A stretch of 64,000 bases of DNA. It comes from an uncultured virus (IMG/VR IMGVR_UViG_3300013005_004049). Taxonomy: Duplodnaviria; Heunggongvirae; Uroviricota; Caudoviricetes. The stretch covers positions 1-64,000 of the IMG/VR virus record IMGVR_UViG_3300013005_004049, one strand, 5' to 3'. The notes beneath the pieces are model-generated. The model saw nothing but the letters and a program-made list of their open reading frames with translations, did not search any database and was not told the origin of the DNA. Of the stretch, positions 4,175 through 60,524 are shown in pieces; within the stretch, counting starts at the first letter, position 1; each line of letters starts with the position of its first letter. Position numbers and translations under genes: made by a program.

Positions 4175-4327
4175 TTACTTTCCCTTACTGCTCTGCTCCT
4201 TTGAAGGCGGTGCTCTCATCATTTTTGCTTCTTGCATGACTTTATCTCTCGCTGGGCTGCTCCGTTGCGGGGGCTGCGCTGGCATCTGACTGGGATGGCG
4301 CGACGGTTTGTGATTGAACCAACTCAT
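4175..4327 (-). CDS. Small Pro-rich hypothetical protein overlapping the csgG 3' end
   Basis: AAGGAG-N7-ATG at 4327 (MSWFNHKPSRHP...); fills the gap before the curlin-like gene. Confidence 0.5.
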   Translation of the reverse strand: MSWFNHKPSRHPSQMPAQPPQRSSPARDKVMQEAKMMRAPPSKEQSSKGK

Positions 4328-5141
4328 CTTTGTTCTCCTTAATTTGCGTTGTGCCACTGGCTGCAAGTTTTTTATATCTCCACAAGCCTTTCTTTTCGCC
4401 TGCTATGACCATGTCATGTACTGCTTGTTCTATGGCAACTCGCACAGCATAGGTAGTCGGTTCATTAAGAGCAGATCCATTTTCAAGCTCAAGGGCCTTG
4501 GTACCTGCGTCTACAAAACGCAACACACCCACATTGTGCTGAGTGCTATAGATAGTTTTGCTAACAGCATTGCTTATTAGAACTTCACCACTGTTAACAC
4601 TGATCAATCTGAGACTGATAACGATTTCATCCACACGGTATTGTTGGCTTCCACCAATGCCTAAAAATCTAGCACCGTTGCCGCCACTTCTTATGTTGCT
4701 GTCATACCCTATAATGCCACCTTCAATCAGCACTCCTGCCACAGTCATTGGTTTCAATGGCCTAGCATCTTTTCCTTCATATACTTCTCGTTGATTGCGT
4801 ATCAGCTGGCGCTCTTTGATCAGATTATCAAGCCCCACACGCTCTACCACTTTGAACCAGTTGTTGGCGTCTTGCAGTGATTTTATTAAAAACACTTCTG
4901 CGCCCTGAGTGACTGCTTTTGAAAACACAGCCAATCTGTCATTGGGTTTCATCTGCCCTGTTTTGTCCGCAAATCCATACACAGCTATGGTTATAGGTGG
5001 CCCATCCAAGTCAGGTAATTTTGTTACTAGATTTTCTTTTGGCAGTAGTGCAACAGGCTCTTCTTTGTTCAGGTCCATGTTTACATGAGCACATCCCGAG
5101 AGAGCTGTCGCAAGGATTGTGTATAGCAAGATGTGTTTCAT
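4242..5141 (-). CDS. csgG: Curli secretion channel lipoprotein CsgG
   Basis: Lipobox LSGC; IAVYGFADKTGQ, SKAVTQGA, WFKVVERVGLDNLIKERQLIR, EGGIIGYDSN, GIGGSQQYRVD. Confidence 0.92.
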   Translation of the reverse strand: MKHILLYTILATALSGCAHVNMDLNKEEPVALLPKENLVTKLPDLDGPPITIAVYGFADKTGQMKPNDRLAVFSKAVTQGAEVFLIKSLQDANNWFKVVERVGLDNLIKERQLIRNQREVYEGKDARPLKPMTVAGVLIEGGIIGYDSNIRSGGNGARFLGIGGSQQYRVDEIVISLRLISVNSGEVLISNAVSKTIYSTQHNVGVLRFVDAGTKALELENGSALNEPTTYAVRVAIEQAVHDMVIAGEKKGLWRYKKLAASGTTQIKENKDELVQSQTVAPSQSDASAAPATEQPSER

Positions 5142-5587
5142 TAAAATGCAAAGCTCGCTATTGGGACAATTATTTCTGTTCTGCCACCTGTAGCTTCAAT
5201 TATGGTCAAAGTTACATCGGTGCCAGTTTTAACCCAACTGATATTTGTACCTTGAAAGTCCATGCTACCGCTGTTGCCGCCACCTTCAGCAAACATTTGA
5301 TCAGCCAGCTGTTTGGATAATTGGGCGTAGATACGGGCTTCTACATTTACAAGAAATTTTGCAAGATTTGTTTGTTTTGCGGCTGCTTCTGCTTTGGCCA
5401 ATGCTGCGGCTGCTTCTGCTTTGATTTCTTTGGCTTTGTTTTCTTCCATCTGGAAGATGGAAAGTACATGTTGGCTGTAGCCGTTGCCCGGTATAAACGC
5501 AGGGCTTTGAAATTGATGCACCAGCTCGGTTGGACGAGCAACCGCTGATACAGTGACTAGCGCCACCACCAGCAGTAACCTTTTCAT
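5141..5587 (-). CDS. csgF: Curli assembly component CsgF-like
   Basis: Signal peptide, ELVHQFQSPAF..GNG, RIYAQLSKQLADQMF, TDVTLTIIEATGGRTEIIVP; coupled to csgG. Confidence 0.8.
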   Translation of the reverse strand: MKRLLLVVALVTVSAVARPTELVHQFQSPAFIPGNGYSQHVLSIFQMEENKAKEIKAEAAAALAKAEAAAKQTNLAKFLVNVEARIYAQLSKQLADQMFAEGGGNSGSMDFQGTNISWVKTGTDVTLTIIEATGGRTEIIVPIASFAF

Positions 5588-13818: not shown

Positions 13819-13847
13819 TTGACTGTTTGAACTGTTTATGTTATATT
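13819..13847 (+). promoter_or_regulatory. sigma70-type promoter TTGACT-17-TGnTATATT, leaderless
   Basis: ATG 13853 lies 5 nt after the -10; no RBS. Confidence 0.65.
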
Positions 13848-13852
13848 CAGGC

Positions 13853-14422
13853 ATGAACATCCAAACTTTGCCCACTCTGCTGGAATCAGCTGAAATCACC
13901 TGCCCAAGTTCGGGCAATCAACGAGCCTACGCTGATCTAATAGAAGAAAGTGCTTGTGCCATTGCGCAGAATCAATTTGCCGAACAGTATCGCAAGTCGC
14001 GTTCGGTCAAAAGCACCGAGGATTTTGCCTTGATTGAAAACGGGCGCACCATCTACATTGATGTAAAAACTCGTCAGCTGGGCACGGATCTAAACATGCC
14101 CAACATGATCAGTGTGGACAAGTTAAACAAACTGTTGGATGATGTTGACACAGAATTGTACTACTGGATGATTGACTATGAAGTGCGTGAGGATGGCTCT
14201 GCACAGGTCACGCATACCGAAATGCGAGCTGTATGGGACTTGCCCTGGTCGGCCCTGGCTATTCAAAACCTTGGGCTAGGGCAGTTGCAAATTGCCAATT
14301 GGTCTGCAATGAATCAACCCGGCTTGCCCAGGGCCGCATGGCATGCACAACTCAAACAGGAAATGCGGGCATTTTACACCCGTCAAGCTCAAAAGTTCCT
14401 GGATTTGGCCAGCAAAATCTAG
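13853..14422 (+). CDS. PD-(D/E)xK restriction-endonuclease-like nuclease
   Basis: TEDF...IYIDVKT catalytic-type motif, MPNMISVDKL, GLGQLQI. Confidence 0.55.
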   Translation: MNIQTLPTLLESAEITCPSSGNQRAYADLIEESACAIAQNQFAEQYRKSRSVKSTEDFALIENGRTIYIDVKTRQLGTDLNMPNMISVDKLNKLLDDVDTELYYWMIDYEVREDGSAQVTHTEMRAVWDLPWSALAIQNLGLGQLQIANWSAMNQPGLPRAAWHAQLKQEMRAFYTRQAQKFLDLASKI

Positions 14423-14527: not shown

Positions 14528-14556
14528 TTGACCGTTTTGGCCCGTTTTGCTATAAT
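14528..14556 (+). promoter_or_regulatory. Strong early sigma70-type promoter TTGACC-17-TGcTATAAT
   Basis: Near-consensus hexamers; ATG 14563 lies 6 nt after the -10. Confidence 0.8.
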
Positions 14557-14562
14557 AATGAC

Positions 14563-14889
14563 ATGAACTTACAAAAGCCCACTCGCAAAAGACGCCAGGA
14601 CACCAACCATGCTGTTTACTGTATTACCAATACAGTGACAGGTGCTCAGTACATTGGCATCACAGTATGCGGTGGCAATGTACGCAAGGCACTCAAAGTG
14701 CGCATCCAAAAACATGTTCGCCGCGCTGTTACAGAAAACAAAGATTGGGAATTGTGCAAGAGCATCCGTGAATACGGTACACTTGCACACACCTATGGAC
14801 TTGTTGAAATTGTGCGTGGCCGCAAGCCAGCTCATGCTCGTGAGCGCGAACTGATCCGTACTTACAACCCTCAACTCAACTCACACTAA
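14563..14889 (+). CDS. Stand-alone GIY-YIG nuclease domain protein
   Basis: VYCITNTVTGAQYIG...R...H...RERELI...PQLN. Confidence 0.75.
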   Translation: MNLQKPTRKRRQDTNHAVYCITNTVTGAQYIGITVCGGNVRKALKVRIQKHVRRAVTENKDWELCKSIREYGTLAHTYGLVEIVRGRKPAHARERELIRTYNPQLNSH

Positions 14890-48146: not shown

Positions 48147-49279
48147 TATTTGCCTAACTTGTGATTTAGGTACACAATTTTTTCGCTGTTCTGTTGCATC
48201 ATTTGTTTTTCAATTCCCGGCAACATGCCCGAGTAACTGATCAATAAAGGTATGGTGTCATTGGTATTGATAGGCTTGTGGGTAAACAGCACCGGTGTGG
48301 TTATTTCTTTGATACTGTCTAGTTTTTTATTCAACAACAAAGTCACTTGATCCTGTCCCAGCTCTTGTGTTACCAACGCATGTTCGTTAGACAAACTAGG
48401 TGCATAGATTATCATGGGCAATCTATTTACCAGCTGAGCATAGCGTAGCAGGCGACTCAACTGATTTTGTGCGCCAGCTAATTCGTATTCTCTACGCAAC
48501 ATGAACACCACTAGATCAGGCCCTAGAGCACTGTCAAGTTCTGTAACCAAATCTTCATGCACAGTATAGCCTAGCACACTTGAAAGATCAACCAGCTGAT
48601 GCAGGTGTTCATCATCCAAACTCCATCCTTGTGCGTGAATGTAGTCTAACATACCAGGTGAAGCATTTGTTAGTTCCAGCCCCGACTCAGTCCTGCACAG
48701 TTGTATCTTGTACGGCTGTTGTTCTACTGCAATAATCTCTTCCAGGTACTGTTCAATTGGTTGGTCAATTTCAAAATTGTGCCCTTTGGCCCAGCTTACT
48801 GTGAAATTAATATTGTACTCGCTTACTGCAATGACCCAGACCTTGTTTTCTTTGTCAAAGTGTGCTGACCCTTGTCGTGCTTTCAACAGCTCGCGCAGTT
48901 GAGTGATCATATTGCTGTCGTATGGAAAACGAAGATAGATCTTGGAACCGTCGGACCAAATGCGTTTGCTACGATCAAGATAGCGCAAGGGCCTGCGATA
49001 TTTTGGATCAGTACAAGGCGTCACATCAATGCCCTTGCTGGCCAGTTGACGCTGATACTTGAGAATGATTTTCACAGCCAATTGGGCTTGCTTGTCCGTC
49101 ATAGCAGTGCCAGCGAGTGTGCTGGATGTCAAGTCATCCAAGAAGCTGGTATCGTATCTGGCAAGACTCACAATAGGACTGAATGCACCAAACAAGTAAC
49201 CAGAACTTATTTTGCCTGCCAAGTCTCGCTTGCCGGCCAGTACCTCAAGATAGTCTTCAACAAAATCATAGGTCTTCAT
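48146..49279 (-). CDS. Hypothetical protein (HARP-like segment)
   Basis: LRFPYD...HFDKENKVW; upstream of UvsW; leaderless sigma70 promoter. Confidence 0.55.
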   Translation of the reverse strand: MKTYDFVEDYLEVLAGKRDLAGKISSGYLFGAFSPIVSLARYDTSFLDDLTSSTLAGTAMTDKQAQLAVKIILKYQRQLASKGIDVTPCTDPKYRRPLRYLDRSKRIWSDGSKIYLRFPYDSNMITQLRELLKARQGSAHFDKENKVWVIAVSEYNINFTVSWAKGHNFEIDQPIEQYLEEIIAVEQQPYKIQLCRTESGLELTNASPGMLDYIHAQGWSLDDEHLHQLVDLSSVLGYTVHEDLVTELDSALGPDLVVFMLRREYELAGAQNQLSRLLRYAQLVNRLPMIIYAPSLSNEHALVTQELGQDQVTLLLNKKLDSIKEITTPVLFTHKPINTNDTIPLLISYSGMLPGIEKQMMQQNSEKIVYLNHKLGK

Positions 49280-49312
49280 GGTTGCAGTTTAACAGAGGCA
49301 GCATCAGAAGTC

Positions 49313-49342
49313 AAAAAAAAGCCCTACCATTTCTGGTAGGGC
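49313..49342 (-). terminator. Rho-independent terminator
   Basis: GCCCTACCA-GAAA-TGGTAGGGC then T8. Confidence 0.9.
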
Positions 49343-49409
49343 ATAAGGTAGATTGCGGAAAGGAGCTAACAAACCACAACCATCAAGCGAGACATTGCCC
49401 GCCTAATTC
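49313..49409 (-). ncRNA. Candidate three-hairpin 3'-UTR RNA with an anti-Shine-Dalgarno loop
   Basis: Stem GGTTGTGG/CCGCAATC closes the loop TTTGTTAGCTCCTTT; flanked by a second hairpin and the terminator. Confidence 0.45.
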
Positions 49410-50456
49410 TTAAGCCATCTTCATGCAAGTGGTTTGAGCCATTGCCTTCCAACGCATGGGGAAGCTCTTGTACAATTGAGCAACCTTGATTGCCATGCGC
49501 AAGCTCAACTCACGCAAGGACTTCTTGTTAGAATCCATAAACTCAATGATCTCATCTGAGCCAGCTTCGCTGATGTCCATGTCAGCAAACAACTCGCCAG
49601 TCTTGGCAATTTGCTTGATGCGCAGGATCTTGTCGCGTTCGGTGTCCAGAGTCAAGTCCAAGTAGTGGCAGCGTGATTGCAGTGCATCCAAGTGATCGCG
49701 CAGTTTTTGCGACTTCATCTTGTCAAACTTGAGGTTGGTAATAAAGATAACCGTACCGTTGAAGTTGAAACTGTCTGGAATGCCTTCTTCCTTGAGAATA
49801 CGGCTCTCACTCAACCATGAAATCTTGCGCTTCTTGCCAGAGTCCAAAGCACCTTTCAGCAAGTTCAAGCTCACATCATCCAACAGGATTGAGTCGCAGT
49901 CGTCAAACACAACCACGCAATTTTCGTCCGAGTACTTGTACAGAGTTTGGTACAAGCCAATGGGCGAAGCAGAACCTTTTACAATCTCGGCACGGAGTCG
50001 ATTGGAGCCCAACATCTGCATCATCTGCACTTTTTCAATCTCACGCTCAACACCATATGACTTACCAACACCAGGAGGGCCGCTGACAATCATGGCACGG
50101 ATTTCGCCGCCCACGCAAGCCTTGGTCATGTCTGTAAGAATCTCAAAACGCTCAGCGATCTCACCCATGCGCTCTTCGTCGGTTTTGCTGTCATTGATAG
50201 CGTCTTGCACATCTGCATCCACAGCCATCACAGCACCGTCAAACTCGTCGGCACCAACAAACTCGTAGTCGCTCATGCCTTCAACTTTGACACGGATTTC
50301 TTCTGGGAAGCCAGGAAACTTGCCACCGTTTTTTACAGTAACATAACCACCTTTGGCAGTTTGTTTGAATTGTTCTACCAGCTGGAACACTTTACCCGAC
50401 ACATCGTGAGCACGATAAGCGCCAGACTTAACACGAACGAAAGCAGATTTAGACAT
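49410..50456 (-). CDS. AAA+ ATPase, early gene
   Basis: GPPGVGKS, VVFDDCD, FITN, LQSR. Confidence 0.85.
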   Translation of the reverse strand: MSKSAFVRVKSGAYRAHDVSGKVFQLVEQFKQTAKGGYVTVKNGGKFPGFPEEIRVKVEGMSDYEFVGADEFDGAVMAVDADVQDAINDSKTDEERMGEIAERFEILTDMTKACVGGEIRAMIVSGPPGVGKSYGVEREIEKVQMMQMLGSNRLRAEIVKGSASPIGLYQTLYKYSDENCVVVFDDCDSILLDDVSLNLLKGALDSGKKRKISWLSESRILKEEGIPDSFNFNGTVIFITNLKFDKMKSQKLRDHLDALQSRCHYLDLTLDTERDKILRIKQIAKTGELFADMDISEAGSDEIIEFMDSNKKSLRELSLRMAIKVAQLYKSFPMRWKAMAQTTCMKMA

Positions 50457-50487
50457 ACAAGCTCCTTTTTTGTTTAACTATGACTCT

Positions 50488-50516
50488 AGTATAGCAAAAT
50501 GGGTATTATTGGTCAA
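50488..50516 (-). promoter_or_regulatory. Early sigma70-type promoter TTGACC-17-TGcTATACT
   Basis: Followed by an AAGGAG RBS. Confidence 0.8.
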
Positions 50517-50688
50517 CCGGCGCAAACATGCGGGCACCTTCTGCCATAAACACACTATAGGCTTCCATTGTTTTTTCACAGTAAAGCATCTTGCCGTGCT
50601 TTTGAATGTCTTGCAAAACTTCTAACAGTCCGATACCCATGAACTCTTGTTCTTTGTTGAGTTGGGCAATAGCTGTGCTAATTTGCAT
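50506..50688 (-). CDS. Small early hypothetical protein
   Basis: Has its own promoter and AAGGAG RBS. Confidence 0.7.
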   Translation of the reverse strand: MQISTAIAQLNKEQEFMGIGLLEVLQDIQKHGKMLYCEKTMEAYSVFMAEGARMFAPVDQ

Positions 50689-50718
50689 TTGGGGCTCCTT
50701 TTGTTTAACTTAGCCTAT

Positions 50719-50747
50719 AGTATAGCAAATGGGCCCATTTGAGTCAA
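50719..50747 (-). promoter_or_regulatory. Early sigma70-type promoter TTGACT-17-TGcTATACT
   Basis: Near-duplicate of the 50488-50516 promoter. Confidence 0.8.
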
Positions 50748-53228: not shown

Positions 53229-53259
53229 AGCAAGCTCCTATTTTTTGTAGAGTTTATGC

Positions 53260-53288
53260 AGTATAAGAAAAAGCCCAATTGTTGTCAA
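53260..53288 (-). promoter_or_regulatory. Early sigma70-type promoter TTGACA-17-TATACT
   Basis: Near-consensus hexamers. Confidence 0.8.
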
Positions 53289-53313: not shown

Positions 53314-54156
53314 TTACACTGTTTCTAGCATTTCTAGCAACTTGTGCCCATTTTTCAAATAGGGCAAATGATTATGAATCATCACACCCACTTGATTTTT
53401 GTGCTCTGGCTGATTGGCTTTGAGTTTTTGGATAGCCATCTGCAACAGATCTATGTGCTGTCTTTGCCATAGTGCATTGATAACATGATTCCATTTGTGT
53501 TCGTTCCAGTTGTTCCAGTCTAATCTTTCGCAATAGAATTCTGCTGTTTCTCTGCGTCCAAAGCCAAATATGTTCCAGATACCATGAATACCCATACTAT
53601 CATGATATTGACCTAGTTCATAGCTGAATCGCTGAGCCAATGGCGTTGGGGCAAATTTCATGCCATAACGACTTTCCAACAAGGGCCTGTGATCTTGCCC
53701 TAGACACTTGTCTTCGTTGATAAAACTGTATTTGGCCAACAGTTTGATTTCTGGATCCTGGCAGGCCTGTAGGAACGCAGCACTGCGCAAACTGAGTCCG
53801 CCGTTGCCAATGTTTTGACCTTCTGGTTCGTTGGGCCACGGAGCTCCAATATAGTCGTACTCTAAGAACTCTGGTAGCCAGCGATTGCTTTGATGTACCA
53901 TGCTGTCATATTGGATATACAAAGCATGTCCTTGTGTAACATGCTGAGCTACTCCTTTGAGCATGAGTTCATTGTATTGTCTAAAATTTCGCACTGGCTC
54001 ATGCGCAATAAATTTACTGCCAGGATAGAAATCCTGATCACTGATAACTATAACTTCTTTTACCGAGGGCAATAGTCTAAGTGTTGTGTCAAGAGCTCGC
54101 TTGGTAAGTTCATAATTAATGAACTCAATGGCCACTACGCTGATATCTAAAGTCAT
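53314..54156 (-). CDS. DUF5672-family glycosyltransferase-like protein
   Basis: QYDS, YDYIGAPW, GNGGLSLRS, NED. Confidence 0.8.
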   Translation of the reverse strand: MTLDISVVAIEFINYELTKRALDTTLRLLPSVKEVIVISDQDFYPGSKFIAHEPVRNFRQYNELMLKGVAQHVTQGHALYIQYDSMVHQSNRWLPEFLEYDYIGAPWPNEPEGQNIGNGGLSLRSAAFLQACQDPEIKLLAKYSFINEDKCLGQDHRPLLESRYGMKFAPTPLAQRFSYELGQYHDSMGIHGIWNIFGFGRRETAEFYCERLDWNNWNEHKWNHVINALWQRQHIDLLQMAIQKLKANQPEHKNQVGVMIHNHLPYLKNGHKLLEMLETV

Positions 54157-55016
54157 TTGAAAATTTGTAACACTTTATCTTTGTTAGGAAATTCTTCTTG
54201 AGACATCCATTCAATCATTTCTTCGCACACACTGCTTTGTTTGATCTTGTCTGCTTGAGTTTCCAATAGATCTAGATACCCAACTCCTGCCATACAAACC
54301 ACAGTGTGATGTGCTCTGTGAACTTCGTTCCAGGTATTTTCTGGTGCTCGTTGGATAAAATATTCAACGGTGTCTCTGGGCATGAACTGAACTATATTCC
54401 AAAATCCATGATGTGCCATGGCATCAAATCCATCTGGAGCAAGTTCAATAGAAAATTTATTAGCCACTGGTGCAGGTGCAAAAACCATGCCCTGACTTTC
54501 TAACCAAGGCCTATGCACAATAGCAATATAGTTGTCTTCTTGAACACCATGCTCACTGGTTGGATCTAATTGTATATGTGGTGCTTGCAGTGCTTGTAGT
54601 AGTCTACGACTGCGCAAACTAAATCCGCCGTTGCCAACATTCTCACCGTGAGGACGCCACGGCCAAACTGCACCAATGTAGTCATTTAACAAAAACCAAT
54701 CATGCCATCCATCACTTTTGTGAACCATGGCGTCCCATTGCTGAAATATCACATACTCAGTTTCAACATGTTCTAACATGCCTTTGAGCAGGAGATTGCA
54801 ATAGTTCAGCATATTGCCATGCGGAATTTTTACATGCTTGGAACCTGGTAGAAAATCTTTGTCACTGAATACCAGTGCATGCTTAAAAGGCACTCGACTC
54901 AGCGTTTCTTCCATGGCTCTTTTGGCCAAGTCATGATACATAGTTTCTATGGTCACAAGGGTAACATCATTCAAGGTACCACCTGATGGCCCAGATTTTG
55001 CATTGCTGATTGTCAT
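54153..55016 (-). CDS. DUF5672-family glycosyltransferase-like protein (tandem paralogue)
   Basis: QWDA, DYIGAVW, GNGGFSLRS, QED. Confidence 0.8.
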   Translation of the reverse strand: MTISNAKSGPSGGTLNDVTLVTIETMYHDLAKRAMEETLSRVPFKHALVFSDKDFLPGSKHVKIPHGNMLNYCNLLLKGMLEHVETEYVIFQQWDAMVHKSDGWHDWFLLNDYIGAVWPWRPHGENVGNGGFSLRSRRLLQALQAPHIQLDPTSEHGVQEDNYIAIVHRPWLESQGMVFAPAPVANKFSIELAPDGFDAMAHHGFWNIVQFMPRDTVEYFIQRAPENTWNEVHRAHHTVVCMAGVGYLDLLETQADKIKQSSVCEEMIEWMSQEEFPNKDKVLQIFK

Positions 55017-56248
55017 TGTATTTCTACTTTAGGAAAGTATTTGAGAAACTTGTCATTTGGATTCATTCGACGGCCAAGAATCTTCTTTTGAATGTCGTCA
55101 AAGTAATTCCAGGCCAGCGGAATAAACAGTATCTTGTCGCCGGGCTGATATTGATCCAAATGATCAATACTGACCACAGGTATGCTCATACCAGGCGAGT
55201 ACTTGCCCTGCTTGAGCTCATTGTCGTCAATGATAAAATCCAGTTTGATCTTGCTAAAATTTAGCAGAGTGTTGCCTTTGGCAGCAGCACCATACCCGCC
55301 GAGGATATAGCCCTTGCGTCTGTACAACTCAACAAATGTCTTTAGTTCATCAACCAAGCGTAGTGTATTAGCAGCCCAATGAGCGTAGGTATCGTCTGTG
55401 TACAACCCAATGGTATTTTCCATTGCAATAATGTTTTTCACACGCTCAGGACGAGGACGCTTGCTCAACACAAACACATAGCTGATGCCGTGGATGGGAG
55501 TTTTGATAGCGTCCACAAGATACAAACCGGATCGTTCGGCCAGAGCCTTCATGCTCTTGACATTGAAGAAACTGATGTGTTCGTGATAGATTGTGTCAAA
55601 TTCGTCATTTGGAACCATGTCAGCTTGACTGGTACTAACAAACATCAGGCTATTGCTATGCATAACATCTCGAACATTTTCCAGATAATTTACTAGATCA
55701 GGAATGTGTGCAAATGCATTTTGACTGGTTATGATATCTATTTTACCATTGGCAGCATGTACAACTTCTGTGGCAGTATCTTTGTTCCAGAAATCACACA
55801 CCACACGATGCCCGCTGCGTTGACTGACAGGAAACAAATTTTTAGCAGGGTCAACTCCGTAGGTTCTAAGGCCTTCGTCGATGAAAAAATTCAATTGACT
55901 GCCATCGTTACAGCCAATATCCAACACAGTTTCTGGATTATGACCGGCGTGTGAGCGATACAATTCCATGGCAAATTTAGCATACCAGTGCATGTAATGT
56001 AGATATGTTTTGCTGGTTCCACTCACATACAAATAATGCTCGTAGATCAGTTTAGGGTTCACTGCATGTGTGAGCTGTAGGTGATGGCAGTCTCGACACA
56101 TGTTCACAGCCAGCGGAAAATACGGCTCACTGTCGCCGGGCTCTTCCTTGAACGCATTGGCCAATGGCTGATCGTTTAAGTCCAGCATGAGCACTAGATT
56201 GTGTCCACCGCAGGCCAAACAAGAGTTTAATTGAGTAATATCATTCAT
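55013..56248 (-). CDS. NDP-hexose C-methyltransferase
   Basis: CLACG..QPLAN..CRDCHHLQL zinc domain, LDIGCNDG, FDTIYHEH, YGAAAKG. Confidence 0.88.
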   Translation of the reverse strand: MNDITQLNSCLACGGHNLVLMLDLNDQPLANAFKEEPGDSEPYFPLAVNMCRDCHHLQLTHAVNPKLIYEHYLYVSGTSKTYLHYMHWYAKFAMELYRSHAGHNPETVLDIGCNDGSQLNFFIDEGLRTYGVDPAKNLFPVSQRSGHRVVCDFWNKDTATEVVHAANGKIDIITSQNAFAHIPDLVNYLENVRDVMHSNSLMFVSTSQADMVPNDEFDTIYHEHISFFNVKSMKALAERSGLYLVDAIKTPIHGISYVFVLSKRPRPERVKNIIAMENTIGLYTDDTYAHWAANTLRLVDELKTFVELYRRKGYILGGYGAAAKGNTLLNFSKIKLDFIIDDNELKQGKYSPGMSIPVVSIDHLDQYQPGDKILFIPLAWNYFDDIQKKILGRRMNPNDKFLKYFPKVEIQ

Positions 56249-57167
56249 TGTCTAAGATCTTTTCTAGTGCGTTAAAGATTTTTTGATTGTCAAAACTTTT
56301 ACTACAGGCCCACTTAACTGCATTTTCGCAAACAAGTTCTCGCACCGGAGGTGTCTGTCTTGCATAACAACCTAAACATTCCACATCGCTGGTCACAACA
56401 GTAATATCTTTACCAAACTCACCGCTGCGTGTGGGCAGTATTTGCTCTGGCAACAGATGGCTGATCAATGCCACCATTGGTGTGCTAGTGGTGCCAGCAA
56501 TATGAAAAGGTCCACTGTCTGGTCCGACAAACGCACGAGCTTTGGAAATTAAATATTGAATTTCTCCAATACTTAATTGTTCAACCAGATCAATATAACG
56601 ATCTGGTTGTGGTGGCACACGAAAATCGTATTTGGCCCCAACTGCCACAACTTTCATGGTAGGATATTTTTCATGCAAGCGAGTGAACATTGAGCTCCAG
56701 ATTTCCAAATCAATGTTTTTGTTTTCCCAAGCCCAACGACGCATGTGTACCACAATGTAATCACTGTTGATTTCTTCAATCACTTGATCCACATTGGATT
56801 TTTCTTCATCTGTGGGAAATATCTCCGGAGAATGGTCAACTGCCAGGCCTTCTTGGCCAAATGCTCTGTACAAGTAACTGTCCACATAGTGACTGGTCAC
56901 TTGTTCTTCATAGGCATCATTGAGATTGACATACAAGTCCCAAGGATCTGCTTTTTGCATGTCGTCGGGTTTTACCACTTGACTCACATGAGGATTATTA
57001 TGCAATACATCAGGTTCTTCTGTAACCACTTGCAAAAAAGCATCAGGATGTCTACGACGCAGTTCTCGCAGCACAGGTGTGATCATGACTAGATCTCCAA
57101 GTGCTCTACGACGGTCAACCAGAATTCTAGTTTGGTGACCTCCTTTGTATTCTGTTTTAGCGTACAT
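56241..57167 (-). CDS. GT9 (heptosyltransferase-like) glycosyltransferase
   Basis: ALGDLVMITP, NNPH, FVGPDSGPFHIA. Confidence 0.85.
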   Translation of the reverse strand: MYAKTEYKGGHQTRILVDRRRALGDLVMITPVLRELRRRHPDAFLQVVTEEPDVLHNNPHVSQVVKPDDMQKADPWDLYVNLNDAYEEQVTSHYVDSYLYRAFGQEGLAVDHSPEIFPTDEEKSNVDQVIEEINSDYIVVHMRRWAWENKNIDLEIWSSMFTRLHEKYPTMKVVAVGAKYDFRVPPQPDRYIDLVEQLSIGEIQYLISKARAFVGPDSGPFHIAGTTSTPMVALISHLLPEQILPTRSGEFGKDITVVTSDVECLGCYARQTPPVRELVCENAVKWACSKSFDNQKIFNALEKILDNE

Positions 57168-57870
57168 ATTCGCTTTCTGGATAGTTGTTTTCAAAATGCC
57201 AACCCGGAGTTTGTTTGCCCGGAGTGTTGGCTATTTCAAACCAAGTTGGGTTAGCACTGCCAATCCAGGCTTCATGGTCGTAACGGAAATTACCGCCATC
57301 TAGCACTGCTCCGGTGAGCTTGCTAGGAGTGCCCCATGCATACTGCTCTGGAGAAGTTAGAGCAGTGAGTTTTTTGATATAACTGCTCTTGCTCCACCAA
57401 AAATTACCTGAACTGTGCAACCACGGTTGTTCAATGACATTGGTACCCACTAGGTCGTAGCCACTGTCTAGTTTTTCAACACAGGTACGCCAATTGTCAA
57501 TCATCCAGTATTCCATAAAGTTGCGCCAGTCTGTAACGCGGCCGTCGCCCAGCCTACTGAGTCCTTTAAGGTGGAAGTAGAATATATTGTACTCCTCATC
57601 AGCAGCATCACAGTTGCGCTTGACTAGATCCAGTGTAGGATATTCCCACAAATCTGTTCTGTTGCTGGTATGAATAAATTTTATATTTCTTTCATTGGCC
57701 AGCACATTCTGTGCATCAATAAAATTAAGCTCGTTGCCATTGGTGCACAAAAATACAGTTTCTGCTGTTTCTAACAACTCATGCTCGCTGAGTCTAGTCA
57801 ACTGCTCACTCATGAGTTCATGTGCTCCTGGCAAATCGTTTAGGTGCATAAAAATTTTAATCTTGTTCAT
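57157..57870 (-). CDS. Glycosyltransferase-like hypothetical protein
   Basis: EYPTL, YFHLKG, WRNFMEY, SGNFWW. Confidence 0.55.
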   Translation of the reverse strand: MNKIKIFMHLNDLPGAHELMSEQLTRLSEHELLETAETVFLCTNGNELNFIDAQNVLANERNIKFIHTSNRTDLWEYPTLDLVKRNCDAADEEYNIFYFHLKGLSRLGDGRVTDWRNFMEYWMIDNWRTCVEKLDSGYDLVGTNVIEQPWLHSSGNFWWSKSSYIKKLTALTSPEQYAWGTPSKLTGAVLDGGNFRYDHEAWIGSANPTWFEIANTPGKQTPGWHFENNYPESEYVR

Positions 57871-58661
57871 TTTAGTCCTTTATAAACACTTTCAGCTGTG
57901 GCCACTTGGCTACGCTTTTTAATAAGTTCCATGATTTCTGGATTATCTTTTTGATCTTCTCGAGGTACGAATAGTGCTTTGCCTCGATCGCTAGCATCCG
58001 CAGCTGGATCCGTGACATAGTAAACGGCAAGGCTTTGACGCATGACCCCTGCTGGACAAACAAGGTCCTTGGGTAAGCCATGCCACGAATATTGAGTCGT
58101 GTCAAAGAGCACTGCACGGTTGAATCGATTTTCAACTGTGGTGACCAACTCTTTGGCTCTTGCTGTTTCTGAATCATGACTCCATAACTCCAACCCACCT
58201 CCCCAGTCCGCACTCCAATCAGGTGTAATGTACACAATTAGATTGTAATGTCTTTCTAATTTTAACTTAGGATGTATGCTGTAGTCAAGATGTATATTCA
58301 ACTTTCCGGCCTGGGTATGAGCATGCCATCCGCCGCCGTGTAGTCCTACATCTGCCTTGACTTCTGTGTTGCCTGTGATTTTGCTCACTATGGTTTCGAA
58401 CGCTGTGCTGCACAGATAATGCAAAACAGAGTAAGTGGTAGCAGGAAACTTATCCCAATGATTACAGGCTTTTTTGTTTTCTATGGGATTGTTGTAGTGT
58501 GCATTCCAAACAGGGCTGTCATAATCTGGAAATTCTTTTACCAATTGCTGAACTGTTTCTTGTGTAAAGAAATTGTCCATGACAATATAATTAAACGGCT
58601 TGTTGGCAAGAAACTGTGTTTGTAGTGCTTGCCAATCTCGTTGAGTCAGAATATTATCCAT
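57867..58661 (-). CDS. 2OG-Fe(II) oxygenase
   Basis: LHGGG, IHLD, GGGLELW, FNRAVLF, SWHG, RQSLA. Confidence 0.88.
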   Translation of the reverse strand: MDNILTQRDWQALQTQFLANKPFNYIVMDNFFTQETVQQLVKEFPDYDSPVWNAHYNNPIENKKACNHWDKFPATTYSVLHYLCSTAFETIVSKITGNTEVKADVGLHGGGWHAHTQAGKLNIHLDYSIHPKLKLERHYNLIVYITPDWSADWGGGLELWSHDSETARAKELVTTVENRFNRAVLFDTTQYSWHGLPKDLVCPAGVMRQSLAVYYVTDPAADASDRGKALFVPREDQKDNPEIMELIKKRSQVATAESVYKGLK

Positions 58662-58668
58662 GCTTTCC

Positions 58669-59394
58669 TTAGTTCACAATTGGAATTCCATTTGGAGCGA
58701 TGTTTCCGTAAACACCCACTTGGTCAACTTCGTACACATGCTGTTTGGGAATAGCGTGGTATAGGCAGTGTTCAATGTCAGCATATCCGCCCATGCTCAT
58801 GCGTTGTTTCATGTAGTCGCGCCCGGTTTCGTACCAGGCAATCATGTCTGCATGCATGGCTTTGGGCCAGCTGAGTAATCTGCACATGTACTGCATGTTC
58901 AACCCAGTTACTTCAATTGGAAACTGACTGGCCACACTCTTGCCAATTACCACCTTGTCTTTTACTTGTGGTTGATTGTAAAAGTCAATGTCAAATTTCT
59001 CATTGAGCAGATATCTTCCACTCATTTTGAAAATTCTATCTTGATCATCAATTTCGCCAGCATCCTGTAGCGTTCTAAGACTGATAGGAAAAGTAGTTAG
59101 CTCGGTTAGATTCTTTACAACATCCCAATTGTTGTACCAACTTGGATTGTTGTAAATGTAGTTCACTTCGCTGTTGGTAGTGAAATCAATGTACAAATCA
59201 GCAGCGTCCATGAGTGCTGTTTCCACAGTTGAATGAACACCAGCGCCACTTACTTCATTGACTACAATTTTACAGCCCGGCACACGCTCGCGAAGGCATG
59301 CAATGGTATCCAGCGTCATGTCGCGACGCTGTTCCCAGGTATAGATACCAAAGCGAGTGTGTACTGCTGATGTTACAATAAAAGTTGTTTTCAT
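58669..59394 (-). CDS. Hypothetical protein of the glycan cluster
   Basis: FIVTS, FKMSGRY, DIEH. Confidence 0.6.
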   Translation of the reverse strand: MKTTFIVTSAVHTRFGIYTWEQRRDMTLDTIACLRERVPGCKIVVNEVSGAGVHSTVETALMDAADLYIDFTTNSEVNYIYNNPSWYNNWDVVKNLTELTTFPISLRTLQDAGEIDDQDRIFKMSGRYLLNEKFDIDFYNQPQVKDKVVIGKSVASQFPIEVTGLNMQYMCRLLSWPKAMHADMIAWYETGRDYMKQRMSMGGYADIEHCLYHAIPKQHVYEVDQVGVYGNIAPNGIPIVN

Positions 59395-60422
59395 TTGCGC
59401 AACCAACGATCGTTGATCAGGGTCCAGTCCACTACTTCTTTCACACGCTCAGACAGTTTGATCTTGGGAATCCATCCCAGACTTTCTAGTAGGCCACCGT
59501 CCAGTGCATAGCGCAGATCATGTCCCGGGCGTGAGCTGTGGAAATCAACCATTTCATACTTGAGCTCTTTGCCTTGTGCTCGTGCAATAATGTGTGCCAA
59601 CTCAAGGTTGTCAATTTCTTCTGGACCAACCAAGTTAAACTTGGGACACTTGGCACCGCCGTAGTCGCTTTCGTGCTTGTAGTTTTGCAGTTTTTCCAAA
59701 ACAAACATCAGGCCATCAGCCACATCTTTGGCATGAATGTAGTGCCGTGATCCTGCTTGTGTTTTGGTTGGGTCGCTGTGTACAGTAACCACTTCGCCAT
59801 CACGCACTTTTTGGATCACCATGGGAATGTATTTTTCCGGATGCTGGCGCTCGCCAAACACATTCATGGTATGTGTGACCACAATAGGCATCTTGTAGGT
59901 GTTTTCAAATGCCACACACAGTTCTTCTGCAGCCGCTTTACTCGCTGAATACGGATTGGTTGAATTGTACCGATCGTACTCTTTGTAGTTCACGCCAGGA
60001 GGTGCTGGACCAAACACTTCGTCAGTTGAGAAGTTGATAAATCGTTCTAGATTGGGCAGGGTTCTAGCCCACTGTAGCAGGTTAACTGTGCCTACCACAT
60101 TGTCCATAACAAACTCCATTGGGTACTCAATGGAACGATCCACATGTGACCCTGCGGCAAGATGCAGTACATAGTGAATGTCTCCAATCATGCCTGATGT
60201 GAGTGGACTAATTTCTGCTTTGAGATCATGGAACACTGGCTTGACCCGTTTACGAATTTCTGGTGCATGATCCTGCATCATGTCTGCCAGACGATTTAGG
60301 TTTCCACTGAAATCCAATCGATCCAGTGTGACTATGTTCCAGTCAGTTGTGCGTAGAATGCGATCAATAATATGATGCGCAATGAAACCGGCGCCGCCGG
60401 TTATGAGGACATTTTTACTCAA
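59391..60422 (-). CDS. rfbB: dTDP-glucose 4,6-dehydratase-like SDR
   Basis: TGGAGFIA, AAGSHVDRS, STDEV, YSASK, RPGHDLRY; probable TTG start after GGAG. Confidence 0.88.
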   Translation of the reverse strand: MSKNVLITGGAGFIAHHIIDRILRTTDWNIVTLDRLDFSGNLNRLADMMQDHAPEIRKRVKPVFHDLKAEISPLTSGMIGDIHYVLHLAAGSHVDRSIEYPMEFVMDNVVGTVNLLQWARTLPNLERFINFSTDEVFGPAPPGVNYKEYDRYNSTNPYSASKAAAEELCVAFENTYKMPIVVTHTMNVFGERQHPEKYIPMVIQKVRDGEVVTVHSDPTKTQAGSRHYIHAKDVADGLMFVLEKLQNYKHESDYGGAKCPKFNLVGPEEIDNLELAHIIARAQGKELKYEMVDFHSSRPGHDLRYALDGGLLESLGWIPKIKLSERVKEVVDWTLINDRWLRK

Positions 60423-60451
60423 TTTGATTCTCCAAAGATCATTGATGCTAT

Positions 60452-60524
60452 TATTTATAGTTGGCATTTTGAGCCAGTGTGTTTTTTAATACGCCTTGCT
60501 CTGTACTATTAAATATCGTATACT
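60452..60524. promoter_or_regulatory. Divergent promoters: late TATAAATA (minus, 60459-60452) and plus-strand TTGCTC-17-TATACT with embedded TAAATA
   Basis: Motifs read directly between rfbB and gmd. Confidence 0.6.

What the first reader, a model, noticed from the sequence alone, without database searches (positions are those of the whole stretch)
49313..49409. Structured 3'-UTR RNA displaying an anti-Shine-Dalgarno loop complementary to phage RBSs
Seen on the minus strand after the AAA gene stop: hairpin 1 (49404-49385); hairpin 2 with stem GGTTGTGG/CCGCAATC (two G-U pairs, which favours this strand) and the 15-nt loop TTTGTTAGCTCCTTT (49373-49359); then the terminator. AGCTCCTTT is the exact complement of AAAGGAGCT in the RBS of the same gene (50468-50460) and of csgF (5602-5594), with 7-8 nt matches to the RBSs of the genes at 50688 and 53228. 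On the plus strand the AAGGAG has no start codon at RBS distance. Established: sRNAs with C-rich loops repress translation by pairing with SD sequences. Inference: a 3'-UTR-derived sRNA or long-range cis switch that silences SD-led mRNAs while sparing leaderless replication genes.
Basis: partly seen in the sequence, partly recalled or inferred. Interest (0 to 1): 0.7.

Follow-up and report, generated by a model that had tools for sequence, protein, structure and literature searches.

The report
Phage 3'UTR loop pairing own ribosome site
A large uncultured lake phage carries, just before the terminator of an early gene cluster, a small RNA hairpin whose loop is complementary to the ribosome-binding site of the first main gene of that cluster, and the two sequences have changed together in related phages, which points to a self-silencing switch.

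Summary
On the minus strand, three hairpins follow the AAA-ATPase gene: H1, H2 with the loop UUUGUUAGCUCCUUU, and an intrinsic terminator (MFE -40.8 kcal/mol, z -4.0). The loop is the exact complement of AAAGGAGCU in that gene's RBS.

The element is conserved. 74 of the first 80 related viral loci carry an anti-SD module just before the operon terminator. It occurs once per genome. All 8 pairs of the H2 stem covary.

The anti-SD also changes together with the AAA gene's own SD and spacer across clades:
- AAAGGAGCU / AGCUCCUUU
- CAGGAGCUGA / UCAGCUCCUG
- GGAGCCAACCA / UGGUUGGCUCC
- GGAGUUAAA / UUUAACUCC

The 60 nt before the first terminator hold a complement of at least 7 nt in 92 of 94 distinct pairs. 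Permuted pairs never reached the observed mean (0 of 5000).

Best reading: a 3'UTR anti-SD that sequesters the operon's 5'-proximal SD, as in S. aureus icaR. Sequence cannot tell whether it acts in cis or as a 3'-derived sRNA.

Broad silencing of SD-led mRNAs is not supported. The csgF match is not conserved. The leaderless layout of the next gene is conserved in 62 of 71 loci.

No RNA or functional data exist.

The parts
50488..50516 (-). Sigma-70-type promoter of the AAA gene (TTGACC, 17 nt, TATACT, TG before the -10)
   Evidence: (10 of 12 matches). The equivalent promoter is seen upstream of the AAA gene in most related loci. The TSS is inferred, not mapped.
50457..50481 (-). Predicted short A-rich 5'UTR of the AAA mRNA. 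It holds the target AAAGGAGCU (50468-50460), which is the SD plus 3 upstream A and 2 downstream nt.
   Evidence: Predicted weak self-structure (-4.4 kcal/mol). Duplex with the loop -12.9 kcal/mol against -7.9 with a recalled 16S-tail motif.
49410..50456 (-). AAA-type ATPase gene (348 aa), phrog_1250, a homolog of the gene annotated nrdC.10 in Acinetobacter phage Acj9
   Evidence: phrog_1250, E 6.9e-85; PF00004, 23.0 bits, cut-off 21.2; 35% identity to the Acj9 nrdC.10 product.
49382..49407 (-). Hairpin H1, a clade-specific accessory hairpin
   Evidence: It is present and covaries in the 15 sequences of the window's subclade (10 pairs, 4 of them with compensatory changes). It is absent in the other clades. 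In the full-length MFE its 3' arm pairs with the SD region.
49351..49381 (-). Hairpin H2: 8-bp stem, 15-nt loop UUUGUUAGCUCCUUU (49373-49359), anti-SD core AGCUCCUUU (49367-49359)
   Evidence: CM hit of 44.8 bits, E 7.5e-10, the only strong hit in the window. Stem covariation in 8 of 8 pairs, 93.2% of cells paired against 53.0% in shuffles. The loop covaries with the AAA RBS.
49343..49350 (-). U-rich linker (UACCUUAU) between H2 and the terminator
   Evidence: The 7 nt before the terminator stem are U-rich across the 94 distinct modules (commonest UUUUACA, UUUACAA, CUUUUGG).
49313..49342 (-). Intrinsic terminator (9-bp stem with 6 G-C pairs, 4-nt loop, U8)
   Evidence: It is the only strong minus-strand terminator between 53260 and 49300. 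Transcripts from the promoters at 53288, 50747 and 50516 are therefore inferred to share this 3' end.
50694..50701 (-). Secondary site: AAAGGAGC in the RBS of the 60-aa gene (start 50688) behind its own promoter (50747-50719)
   Evidence: Promoter-proximal upstream RBSs match their own module by 6.46 nt on average (123 sites) against 5.57 for other upstream RBSs.
53233..53239 (-). Secondary site: AGGAGCU in the RBS of the 108-aa gene (start 53228) behind the promoter at 53288-53260
49277..49314 (-). Promoter (TTGACT, 17 nt, TAAACT) overlapping the terminator's U-tract, with the ATG of the 377-aa gene 6 nt after the -10 hexamer. This is a leaderless layout. It is a neighbour of the element, not shown to be part of its mechanism.
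   Evidence: The same layout (5-7 nt between -10 and ATG) is seen in 62 of 71 loci.

Best explanation
The element is a post-transcriptional feedback module at the 3' end of an early transcription unit of an uncultured freshwater jumbo phage. Host-type promoters produce nested early mRNAs. Each begins with a roughly 30-nt A-rich leader carrying a strong SD of the form GGAGC, and all end at one terminator. Just before that terminator the RNA displays an anti-SD, in this phage in the 15-nt loop of hairpin H2. The anti-SD base-pairs with the SD and neighbouring nucleotides of the AAA-ATPase gene, 9 bp here and up to 11 bp reaching the start codon in other clades. It pairs more weakly with the other promoter-proximal SDs of the same unit.

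The anti-SD is made last. The SD is therefore free while the mRNA is being transcribed and translated, and can be sequestered once the 3' end exists. The pairing could occur within the same molecule (5'-3' closure, as in S. aureus icaR) or between molecules, or with a stable 3' fragment.

The expected result is a cap on AAA-ATPase synthesis per transcript, and possibly faster decay.

Shown here: the structure, its conservation, its single-copy status, stem covariation and anti-SD/SD co-variation. Inferred: the transcript ends, the pairing in vivo, the sign of the effect (repression) and its timing.
For: - Structure: the three hairpins fold with z -4.0. The RNAalifold consensus for the window's subclade has 26 pairs, 12 of them with compensatory changes.
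- H2 stem: 24 distinct sequences, 93.2% of cells paired against 53.0% in shuffles; 8 of 8 pairs change on both sides; covariation score 1.044 against 0.299 (0 of 500 shuffles reach it); slid controls at most 0.381.
- Conservation and position: the module is present in 74 of 80 loci of the first set (71, plus L045, L047 and L057). It always lies directly before a terminator, 16 to 2084 nt after the AAA stop, so it stays at the operon end when genes are inserted.
- Copy number: one copy in the window (44.8 bits, next best 14.3), one in the 168-kb contig and one in a complete 355-kb genome.
- Pairing partner: in 69 loci the loop holds 6-11 contiguous Watson-Crick nt against the AAA RBS.
- Compensatory types: AAAGGAGCU/AGCUCCUUU, AGGAGCUAG/CUAGCUCCU, CAGGAGCUGA/UCAGCUCCUG, GGAGCCAACCA/UGGUUGGCUCC; GGAGUUAAA/UUUAACUCC, CAGGAGCUAAC/GUUAGCUCCUG, GGAGCAA/UUGCUCC.
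- Cross matrix: two clades match their own RBS by 10-12 nt and foreign RBSs by at most 7.
- Unbiased test: the 60 nt before the first terminator hold at least 7 nt of complement in 92 of 94 distinct pairs (mean 8.9). Shuffled modules give a mean of 3.8, CDS segments reach 8 nt or more in 18 of 765, and permuted pairs average 7.40 with sd 0.15 (0 of 5000 reach the observed mean).
- Terminator control: 15 other sense-strand terminators in the same loci match by at most 6 nt.
- Target specificity: the AAA RBS matches by 8.6-9.2 nt on average, promoter-proximal upstream RBSs by 6.46, and RBSs between the AAA gene and the module by 4.87.
- Full-length folds: in 4 of 4 predicted mRNAs (1.1-1.5 kb) of clades where the anti-SD is single-stranded, the global MFE pairs the SD with the 3' anti-SD.
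- Loci without the module: the 4 loci that lack it despite at least 1.9 kb of downstream sequence have RBSs without GGAGC.
- Plausibility: icaR (PMC3868564, abstract read) and anti-SD-like 8-mers hundreds of nt downstream of the RBS in B. subtilis (PMC12697547, abstract read) repress by pairing with the RBS.
Against: - No expression or functional data exist. Contigs from four lake metatranscriptome runs cover only parts of the coding region, and none covers the hairpin.
- Within this genome the AAA RBS is not the energetically best duplex partner of the loop: -12.9 kcal/mol against -16.9 at the csgF RBS and -16.7 at a coding site. The window-wide mean is -7.3 with sd 2.2.
- In the window's own clade the pairing is not discriminating. 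Loops of that clade match RBSs of neighbouring clades as well as or better than their own.
- Many RBSs in that clade read GGAGCC against the loop AGCUCC, an uncompensated A-C mismatch.
- The conserved 5' half of the loop (UUUGUUA) has no partner in the own RBS.
- Pairing to a hairpin loop is a pseudoknot in cis and cannot be scored by the folding tools. The window's full-length MFE instead pairs the SD with the H1 3' arm.
- A 9-bp duplex must compete with 30S binding. The effect could be stabilisation rather than repression.
- TSS positions are assumed, not mapped.
Confidence: 0.6

Rival explanations
1. Trans-acting 3'UTR-derived small RNA. The hairpin, U-rich linker and terminator accumulate as a stable fragment, possibly bound by Hfq. 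This fragment represses a set of SD-led mRNAs, phage early mRNAs and perhaps host mRNAs, and acts as a timer that shuts off early translation. It overlaps with the best explanation and differs in the range of targets and the need for a processed RNA.
For: - Its layout resembles that of terminator-ending sRNAs: a seed in a loop, a U-rich linker, and a terminator with U6-U10.
- The module stays next to the terminator even when up to 2 kb of genes separate it from the AAA gene.
- Promoter-proximal RBSs of other early genes in the unit match better than other RBSs (6.46 against 4.9-5.6 nt).
- Sub-threshold Rfam similarity to sRNA families with CUCC motifs before a terminator: RF02278 at 23.6 bits and RF00519 at 17.8 bits.
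Against: - The anti-SD drifts together with one RBS, that of the AAA gene, across clades. This is expected for a dedicated partner and not for a hub with many targets.
- The csgF match is not conserved.
- Other GGAGCTAAC sites in two genomes lie inside ORFs.
- No RNA fragment has been observed.
- Hfq binding is only inferred, and the Hfq-module rule is recalled, not read here.
Confidence: 0.25
2. The 5'-3' pairing protects rather than represses. It closes the mRNA ends and shields the SD or the 5' end from an endonuclease, for example a RegB-like GGAG-cleaving enzyme or 5'-end-dependent decay, and so prolongs the mRNA's life. The B. subtilis hbs 5'/3'-UTR interaction is a precedent for a link to stability.
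For: The same covariation evidence applies, since it says nothing about the sign of the effect. The hbs precedent (PMC5737220) was seen only as a search listing with the start of its abstract.
Against: An SD inside a 9-11 bp helix that reaches the start codon in some clades should hinder 30S binding. No RegB-like gene was looked for. The closest studied cases of anti-SD/SD pairing repress (PMC3868564 and PMC12697547, abstracts).
Confidence: 0.1
3. A plain 3' stabiliser and terminator hairpin set whose CU-rich loop matches the SD by chance or by composition. Alternatively, a DNA-level inverted repeat flanking a gene cassette.
For: In the single genome the 9-mer match is only mildly unusual (3 of 100 shuffles reach 3 hits). 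Better duplex partners for the loop exist in the window.
Against: - Own pairs exceed permuted pairs in every one of 10000 and of 5000 permutations.
- Compensatory switches occur in several clades, including the core position (GGAGU/ACUCC).
- Other terminators lack the motif.
- G-U pairs in the stem point to RNA on this strand.
- The left repeat always sits at SD distance from the start codon.
Confidence: 0.05

Closest known systems
icaR mRNA 5'-3' UTR interaction, Staphylococcus aureus (PMC3868564, abstract read)
   Same: An anti-SD motif in the 3'UTR is complementary to the SD of the same mRNA. In icaR the pairing blocks the initiation complex and lowers protein output. Whether it acts in cis or in trans is likewise open for the element described here.
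   Different: No sequence relation. The icaR 3'UTR is long, its motif is UCCCCUG, and the duplex is an RNase III substrate. Here the 3'UTR is about 100 nt, the anti-SD sits in a hairpin loop (or single-stranded before a small hairpin) next to the terminator, the duplex is 7-11 bp, the host is a phage, and the pair has co-evolved across many clades. Nothing has been tested experimentally here.
Long-range anti-SD-like sequences in Bacillus subtilis mRNAs (PMC12697547, preprint, abstract read)
   Same: Pyrimidine-rich 8-mers hundreds of nt downstream pair with the RBS, inhibit initiation and promote decay. This shows that the distance of about 1 kb seen here is workable.
   Different: Those sequences are synthetic substitutions, and natural genes are reported to avoid them. 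Here the anti-SD is positively conserved and structurally displayed.
c4 antisense RNA of phages P1 and P7 (mentioned in review PMC12197685, passage read; details recalled)
   Same: A phage RNA from the same operon as its target. Loop-exposed sequences pair around a ribosome-binding site and block translation. Related phages differ by matched changes in loops and targets (that last point is recalled).
   Different: c4 lies upstream of its target, is a processed free RNA and serves immunity of a temperate phage. Here the module is at the 3' end of an early operon of a phage with lytic-type replication genes.
sRNAs with anti-SD or C/U-rich loops: Betaproteobacteria toxic sRNA RF02278, MmgR RF00519, 6C RNA (PMC6486639, listing only)
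   Same: A CUCC-type motif displayed before a Rho-independent terminator and thought to pair with SD regions.
   Different: Rfam scores are far below gathering (23.6 against 50, and 17.8 against 41), and the aligned part is mostly the terminator. Those are free-standing genes with many targets.
Phage T7 gene 1.1/1.2 mRNA, whose unprocessed 3' end pairs with the RBS unless RNase III cuts it (Saito and Richardson 1981; recalled, not found in the library)
   Same: A phage early mRNA in which a 3'-terminal sequence can pair with an upstream RBS and inhibit translation.
   Different: In T7 the pairing is relieved by RNase III processing. No such site has been identified here. The comparison rests on memory only.

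Membership tests
icaR-type 3'UTR/5'UTR SD-sequestering interaction (a functional class, not a homologous family) | The anti-SD motif lies in the 3'UTR of the same transcript as the SD it matches | tested here: met
   The anti-SD lies 43 nt after the AAA stop and before the only strong terminator of the unit. Transcript ends are inferred from the promoter and terminator scans, not mapped.
icaR-type 3'UTR/5'UTR SD-sequestering interaction (a functional class, not a homologous family) | Base complementarity to the own SD region, supported beyond chance | tested here: met
   9 nt here. At least 7 nt in 92 of 94 distinct pairs. 0 of 5000 permutations reach the observed mean. Compensatory types occur in several clades.
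icaR-type 3'UTR/5'UTR SD-sequestering interaction (a functional class, not a homologous family) | The pairing lowers translation initiation and/or creates an RNase substrate | not testable with these tools
   Needs reporters, toeprinting and RNase assays.
3'UTR-derived (processed) regulatory sRNA | A discrete stable RNA fragment from the 3' end of the mRNA | tested here: inconclusive
   Six lake metatranscriptome runs hold parts of the stretch. The contigs of four of them lie at 49401-50395 and 50694-50729, and none covers 49313-49400. Contigs cannot show ends or abundance.
3'UTR-derived (processed) regulatory sRNA | A conserved seed, and an intrinsic terminator with a U-tail preceded by a U-rich stretch | tested here: met
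   GCUCC is invariant in 40 distinct hairpins. T-runs of 6-10 and U-rich linkers are present in all 94 distinct modules.
3'UTR-derived (processed) regulatory sRNA | Several conserved trans targets | tested here: not met
   The csgF site is not conserved. Other GGAG RBSs match by 4.9-6.5 nt on average. Extra sites lie in coding regions. Host mRNAs could not be examined because the host is unknown.
Rfam RF02278 Betaproteobacteria toxic sRNA; RF00519 MmgR | Score at or above the family's gathering threshold | tested here: not met
   23.6 against 50 bits, and 17.8 against 41 bits. No family reaches gathering anywhere in the window.

The most novel reading that the evidence does not exclude
These bS21-encoding freshwater jumbo phages may run a programmed change of translation-initiation mode. 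A small class of SD-led early mRNAs carries its own anti-SD at the 3' end and closes itself into a silent 5'-3' loop, or is shut off by the accumulating 3' fragment. The genes that follow are transcribed as leaderless mRNAs that escape this control, and a phage ribosomal protein bS21 later retunes the host ribosome's anti-SD. The clade-specific anti-SD/SD pairs would then also work as specificity codes between co-infecting relatives, as with the P1/P7 c4 RNAs.
Probability: 0.12. Interest if true: 0.85.

Novelty: new variant of a known kind. Interest (0 to 1): 0.62.

Why it matters
Regulation of a bacterial mRNA by pairing between its own 3'UTR and its SD is known mainly from one well-studied case, icaR. 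Recent work suggests that long-range anti-SD pairing is generally selected against.

Here the same principle appears as a positively conserved, structurally displayed module in an early operon of a large group of uncultured lake jumbo phages, with natural compensatory variants in several clades. Those variants are the equivalent of a ready-made mutational series.

If confirmed, it would be, to my knowledge, the first such element in a double-stranded-DNA phage. My four searches found none, and most subscription papers are not in the library.

It would also give a simple, portable design for limiting protein output per transcript. Together with the leaderless neighbour gene and the phage bS21 gene, it would point to layered control of translation initiation during infection.

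Tried and rejected
- **Phage DNA collection.** blastn of 4 kb against the phage collection gave no match. The closest cultured relatives share under 60% protein identity.
- **Cultured phages with an AAA homolog.** Vibrio phage VAP7, Acinetobacter phage Acj9 and Pseudomonas phage PA5oct have no GGAGC-type RBS and no anti-SD module. No laboratory phage with the element was found among these three; the other 1304 records were not inspected.
- **RNA evidence.** Six lake-water metatranscriptome runs hold 6-23% of the sampled words. Contigs of four were laid, and they cover 49401-50395 in pieces plus 50694-50729. Nothing lies over H2 or the terminator. Contigs cannot show ends, strand or level, and DNA carry-over is not excluded, so this says nothing either way.
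- **Earlier notes of this scan.** None exist for this genome.
- **csgF as a second target.** Rejected.
- **Search for a partner of the conserved 5' half of the loop.** GGAGCTAAC occurs once more in each of two genomes, both times inside long ORFs in unrelated contexts.
- **First MAFFT alignment of all 40 hairpins (A1).** It was out of structural register on the 3' side and was not used for pair counts. An ungapped 31-column alignment of 24 distinct sequences of the main loop type was used instead. L007, whose loop is 2 nt longer, and the 15 hairpins of the other loop types were left out of that count.
- **Function of the 377-aa downstream gene.** No PHROG or Pfam hit. The Atlas returned only viral hypothetical clusters.
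- **Host.** Not determined. SD-like motifs precede 25-42 of 90 predicted genes against 3-5 at control positions. The promoters are of the canonical sigma-70 type. A paper on bS21 lake phages predicted to infect Bacteroidetes (PMC9723584; abstract and passages read) could not be linked to this clade.
- **T7 gene 1.2 precedent.** Not found in the library.
Full report
**Context**

The window is part of a 168-kb IMG/VR viral contig; L001 is identical to it. CheckV rates that contig 47% complete. A related complete genome with terminal repeats has 354,959 bp, so this is a jumbo phage.

The neighbourhood encodes a DnaB-like helicase, a primase, a UvsW-like helicase, ribonucleotide reductase and many sugar- or oxygenase-type enzymes.

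The gene before the finding (49410-50456, minus strand, 348 aa) is an AAA-type ATPase. It belongs to phrog_1250 (E 6.9e-85). It is 35% identical to the product annotated nrdC.10 in Acinetobacter phage Acj9. No cultured phage reaches 60% identity.

**The observation**

On the minus strand the 116 nt after the stop fold into H1, H2 and a terminator. The MFE is -40.8 kcal/mol, z is -4.00, and 0 of 200 shuffles do as well. The plus strand gives z -1.70.

- H2 has the stem GGUUGUGG/CCGCAAUC and the loop UUUGUUAGCUCCUUU.
- AAAGGAGCT occurs three times in the window: as the loop complement, at the AAA RBS (50460-50468) and at the RBS of the gene at 5141-5587. Shuffles give 0.5 on average, and 3 of 100 shuffles reach three.
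- The 8-nt and 7-nt matches at the genes starting at 50688 and 53228 are also there.

The description is therefore correct. Inside one genome it is only mildly unusual. The loop's predicted duplex with the AAA leader (-12.9 kcal/mol) is not the best in the window; the csgF RBS gives -16.9 and a coding site -16.7, against a window mean of -7.3 with sd 2.2.

**Conservation**

I fetched 80 loci around relatives of the AAA protein. A hairpin with GCTCC in the loop, a stem of at least 6 bp and a following T-run is present in 71 of the 80 within 900 nt of the stop. Three more loci (L045, L047, L057) have it at +934 to +936.

Of the remaining six loci:
- L013 and L074 are cut off, with 807 and 547 nt of downstream sequence.
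- L066, L068, L069 and L073 lack the module within 1.9-3.0 kb. Those four have RBSs without GGAGC.

A covariance model built from 24 distinct H2 sequences finds one strong hit in the window (44.8 bits, E 7.5e-10; the next best is 14.3 bits). It finds one in the 168-kb contig and one in the complete 355-kb genome. The element is single-copy and tied to this operon. Rfam has no family for it. Sub-threshold similarity to RF02278 and RF00519 is mostly terminator plus a CUCC motif.

**The stem is selected as RNA**

On an ungapped 31-column alignment of those 24 distinct sequences:
- 93.2% of 192 cells pair, against 53.0% in shuffles.
- All 8 pairs show changes on both sides.
- The covariation score is 1.044 against 0.299, and 0 of 500 shuffles reach it.
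- Slid controls reach at most 0.381.
- 24 cells are G-U or U-G pairs, which would be mismatches on the other strand.

RNAalifold on the 15 sequences of the window's subclade recovers H1, H2 and the terminator, with 26 pairs of which 12 have compensatory changes. H1 exists only in that subclade.

**The loop co-varies with the AAA gene's own RBS**

Printing the RBSs beside the loops showed matched types:

| RBS | Anti-SD | Loci |
|---|---|---|
| AAAGGAGCU | AGCUCCUUU | window clade |
| AGGAGCUAG | CUAGCUCCU | L054, L055 |
| AGGAGCUGAC or CAGGAGCUGA | GUCAGCUCCUG | L061-65, L075-77 |
| GGAGCCAACC(A) | (U)GGUUGGCUCC | L067, L070-72, L078-80 |

In 69 loci with both parts, the longest Watson-Crick complement is 6-11 nt. 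On the 40 distinct pairs the own mean is 8.475, against 7.75 (sd 0.13) for permuted pairs, and 0 of 10000 permutations reach it. In the cross matrix the two divergent clades match themselves by 10-12 nt and others by at most 7.

A second set of 80 loci added further types:
- GGAGUUAAA / UUUAACUCC, a switch at the otherwise constant core position
- CAGGAGCUAAC / GUUAGCUCCUG
- GGAGCAA / UUGCUCC
- CGGAGCCA / UGGCUCCG

That set also revealed a second architecture, in which the anti-SD is single-stranded just 5' of a small hairpin. In both architectures a U-rich linker and the terminator follow.

To remove selection bias I took the 60 nt before the first strong terminator after the AAA gene, without looking at the RBS:
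- 153 loci were analysed, and 135 have a terminator by my criterion. These give 94 distinct pairs.
- 92 of the 94 hold at least 7 nt of complement (mean 8.9).
- Shuffled modules give a mean of 3.8, and reach 8 nt or more in 35 of 1880.
- CDS segments reach 8 nt or more in 18 of 765.
- Permuted pairs average 7.40 (sd 0.15), and 0 of 5000 reach the own mean.
- The 15 other sense-strand terminators in the same loci match by at most 6 nt.

**Which RBS is the partner**

Among GGAG-led starts in the loci, mean complement lengths are as follows:

| RBS class | Mean complement (nt) | Sites |
|---|---|---|
| AAA gene | 8.6-9.2 | 94 |
| Promoter-proximal, upstream of the AAA gene | 6.46 | 123 |
| Other, upstream of the AAA gene | 5.57 | 94 |
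| Between the AAA gene and the module | 4.87 | 47 |
| After the terminator | 5.19 | 31 |

In each 7-kb locus I inspected, the AAA RBS is the best or tied-best site wherever any match of at least 8 nt was found; three of the 22 loci inspected (L029, L032, L051) showed only shorter matches.

In the window three promoters (53288, 50747, 50516) are each followed by a 30-31-nt leader with GGAGC. No strong terminator separates them from the terminator at 49342-49321. I infer that they give nested transcripts with a common 3' end.

The csgF match is not conserved. The ortholog in a related 349-kb genome, whose loop is of another type, has no SD at all.

**Folding of whole mRNAs**

For four clades with the single-stranded architecture, MFE folds of the predicted full-length mRNAs (1117-1479 nt, with the TSS assumed 30 nt upstream) pair the SD with the 3' anti-SD in 4 of 4 cases.

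In the window's clade, pairing to a hairpin loop is a pseudoknot and cannot be represented by these tools. The MFE there pairs the SD region with the 3' arm of H1. I treat that as a curiosity.

**Mechanism**

The simplest reading is SD sequestration by the 3'UTR anti-SD. It would act after the 3' end has been made, and so limit AAA-ATPase synthesis per transcript. It works like icaR (PMC3868564, abstract). It also fits the recent finding that anti-SD-like 8-mers far downstream pair with the RBS and repress (PMC12697547, abstract).

Cis and trans action cannot be told apart from sequence.
- Co-drift of the anti-SD with one RBS argues for a dedicated partner rather than a regulon.
- The fixed position next to the terminator, the U-rich linker and the U-tail would suit a stable 3' fragment.
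- The sign of the effect is inferred. A protective 5'-3' closure remains possible.

**What speaks against the reading**

- There is no RNA or functional evidence.
- Pairing in the window's own clade is not discriminating.
- Many RBSs of that clade carry an uncompensated C opposite the loop's A.
- The conserved 5' half of the loop has no partner in the own RBS.
- TSSs are assumed.

**Neighbouring features**

The terminator's U-tract overlaps the -35 hexamer of a promoter whose -10 hexamer lies 5-7 nt before the ATG of the next gene in 62 of 71 loci. This is a leaderless layout. That 377-aa gene has no recognisable family, so 'replication gene' is not shown.

Four of five related large genomes, including the window's contig outside the window, encode ribosomal protein bS21 above the Pfam cut-off.

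**Comparison and novelty**

The principle is known from icaR, from long-range anti-SD pairing, from the P1/P7 c4 RNA and from anti-SD-loop sRNAs. It meets the sequence-level criteria of the icaR-type class. It fails Rfam membership for the sRNA families it faintly resembles.

My literature searches found no description of such an element in a double-stranded-DNA phage. The library lacks most subscription journals, and the T7 gene 1.2 precedent is only recalled.

I rate it a new variant of a known kind, well supported as a conserved RNA with a defined pairing partner and untested as to effect.

Noticed in passing
window 49277-49314 (-); also 13819-13855 (+) and 14528-14565 (+): Leaderless-type layout: TTGACN, 17 nt, TAnnnT, then 5-7 nt, then the ATG of a real ORF. 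After the anti-SD terminator this layout is conserved in 62 of 71 related loci, sometimes in front of non-homologous genes. Two more cases lie on the plus strand of the window, one before a GIY-YIG homing-endonuclease-like gene.
   Followed up: partly
window 4242-5587 (-): The phage encodes the curli secretion components CsgG (PF03783, 182.5 bits) and CsgF (PF10614, 60.5 bits) side by side. A CsgF ortholog is present in 1 of 5 related large genomes searched.
   Followed up: partly
outside the window: G001:C1:119272-119424 (same contig), and G002, G006, G008: A ribosomal protein bS21 gene (PF01165, 59-72 bits, above the cut-off) is present in 4 of 5 related jumbo-phage genomes. This recalls the bS21-encoding lake phages of PMC9723584. 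Whether it is the same clade was not established.
   Followed up: partly
L083 (Pseudomonas phage PA5oct) 2814-2850: Directly after the stop of the PA5oct AAA homolog, a hairpin arm AUGCUACU is complementary to AGUAGCAU in that gene's own RBS spacer. The match is 8 nt; by my own rough estimate, not from any call, about 0.5 such matches would be expected by chance in the 2 kb searched. It may be coincidence.
   Followed up: no
window 49382-49407 (-) with 50457-50470 (-): In the MFE fold of the predicted full-length AAA mRNA, the SD region pairs with the 3' arm of H1 (CAAUGUCUCGCUU), an imperfect second anti-SD-like stretch.
   Followed up: no
window 49367-49373 (-), loop 5' half: UUUG(U/A)UA is invariant in the 24 distinct loops of the main type but has no partner in the own RBS. 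In L134 and L136 the same extension pairs with the spacer CUAAC. Other GGAGCTAAC sites in two genomes are inside ORFs.
   Followed up: yes
window 53314-60467 (-): A run of sugar- and modification-type genes: two DUF5672 proteins, a C-methyltransferase, a family-9 glycosyltransferase, a 2OG-Fe(II) oxygenase and an NAD-dependent epimerase/dehydratase. Further along there is an Asp/Arg beta-hydroxylase-like gene, a cupin, a PIG-L deacetylase-like gene and a radical-SAM-like gene among the replication genes.
   Followed up: no
window, all RBSs with GGAG: GGAG-led starts split into GGAGC (8, including the three promoter-proximal early genes and csgF) and GGAGA (7, at genes elsewhere in the window). 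GGAGG, the best match to the recalled 16S tail motif, occurs only twice in 72 kb.
   Followed up: no
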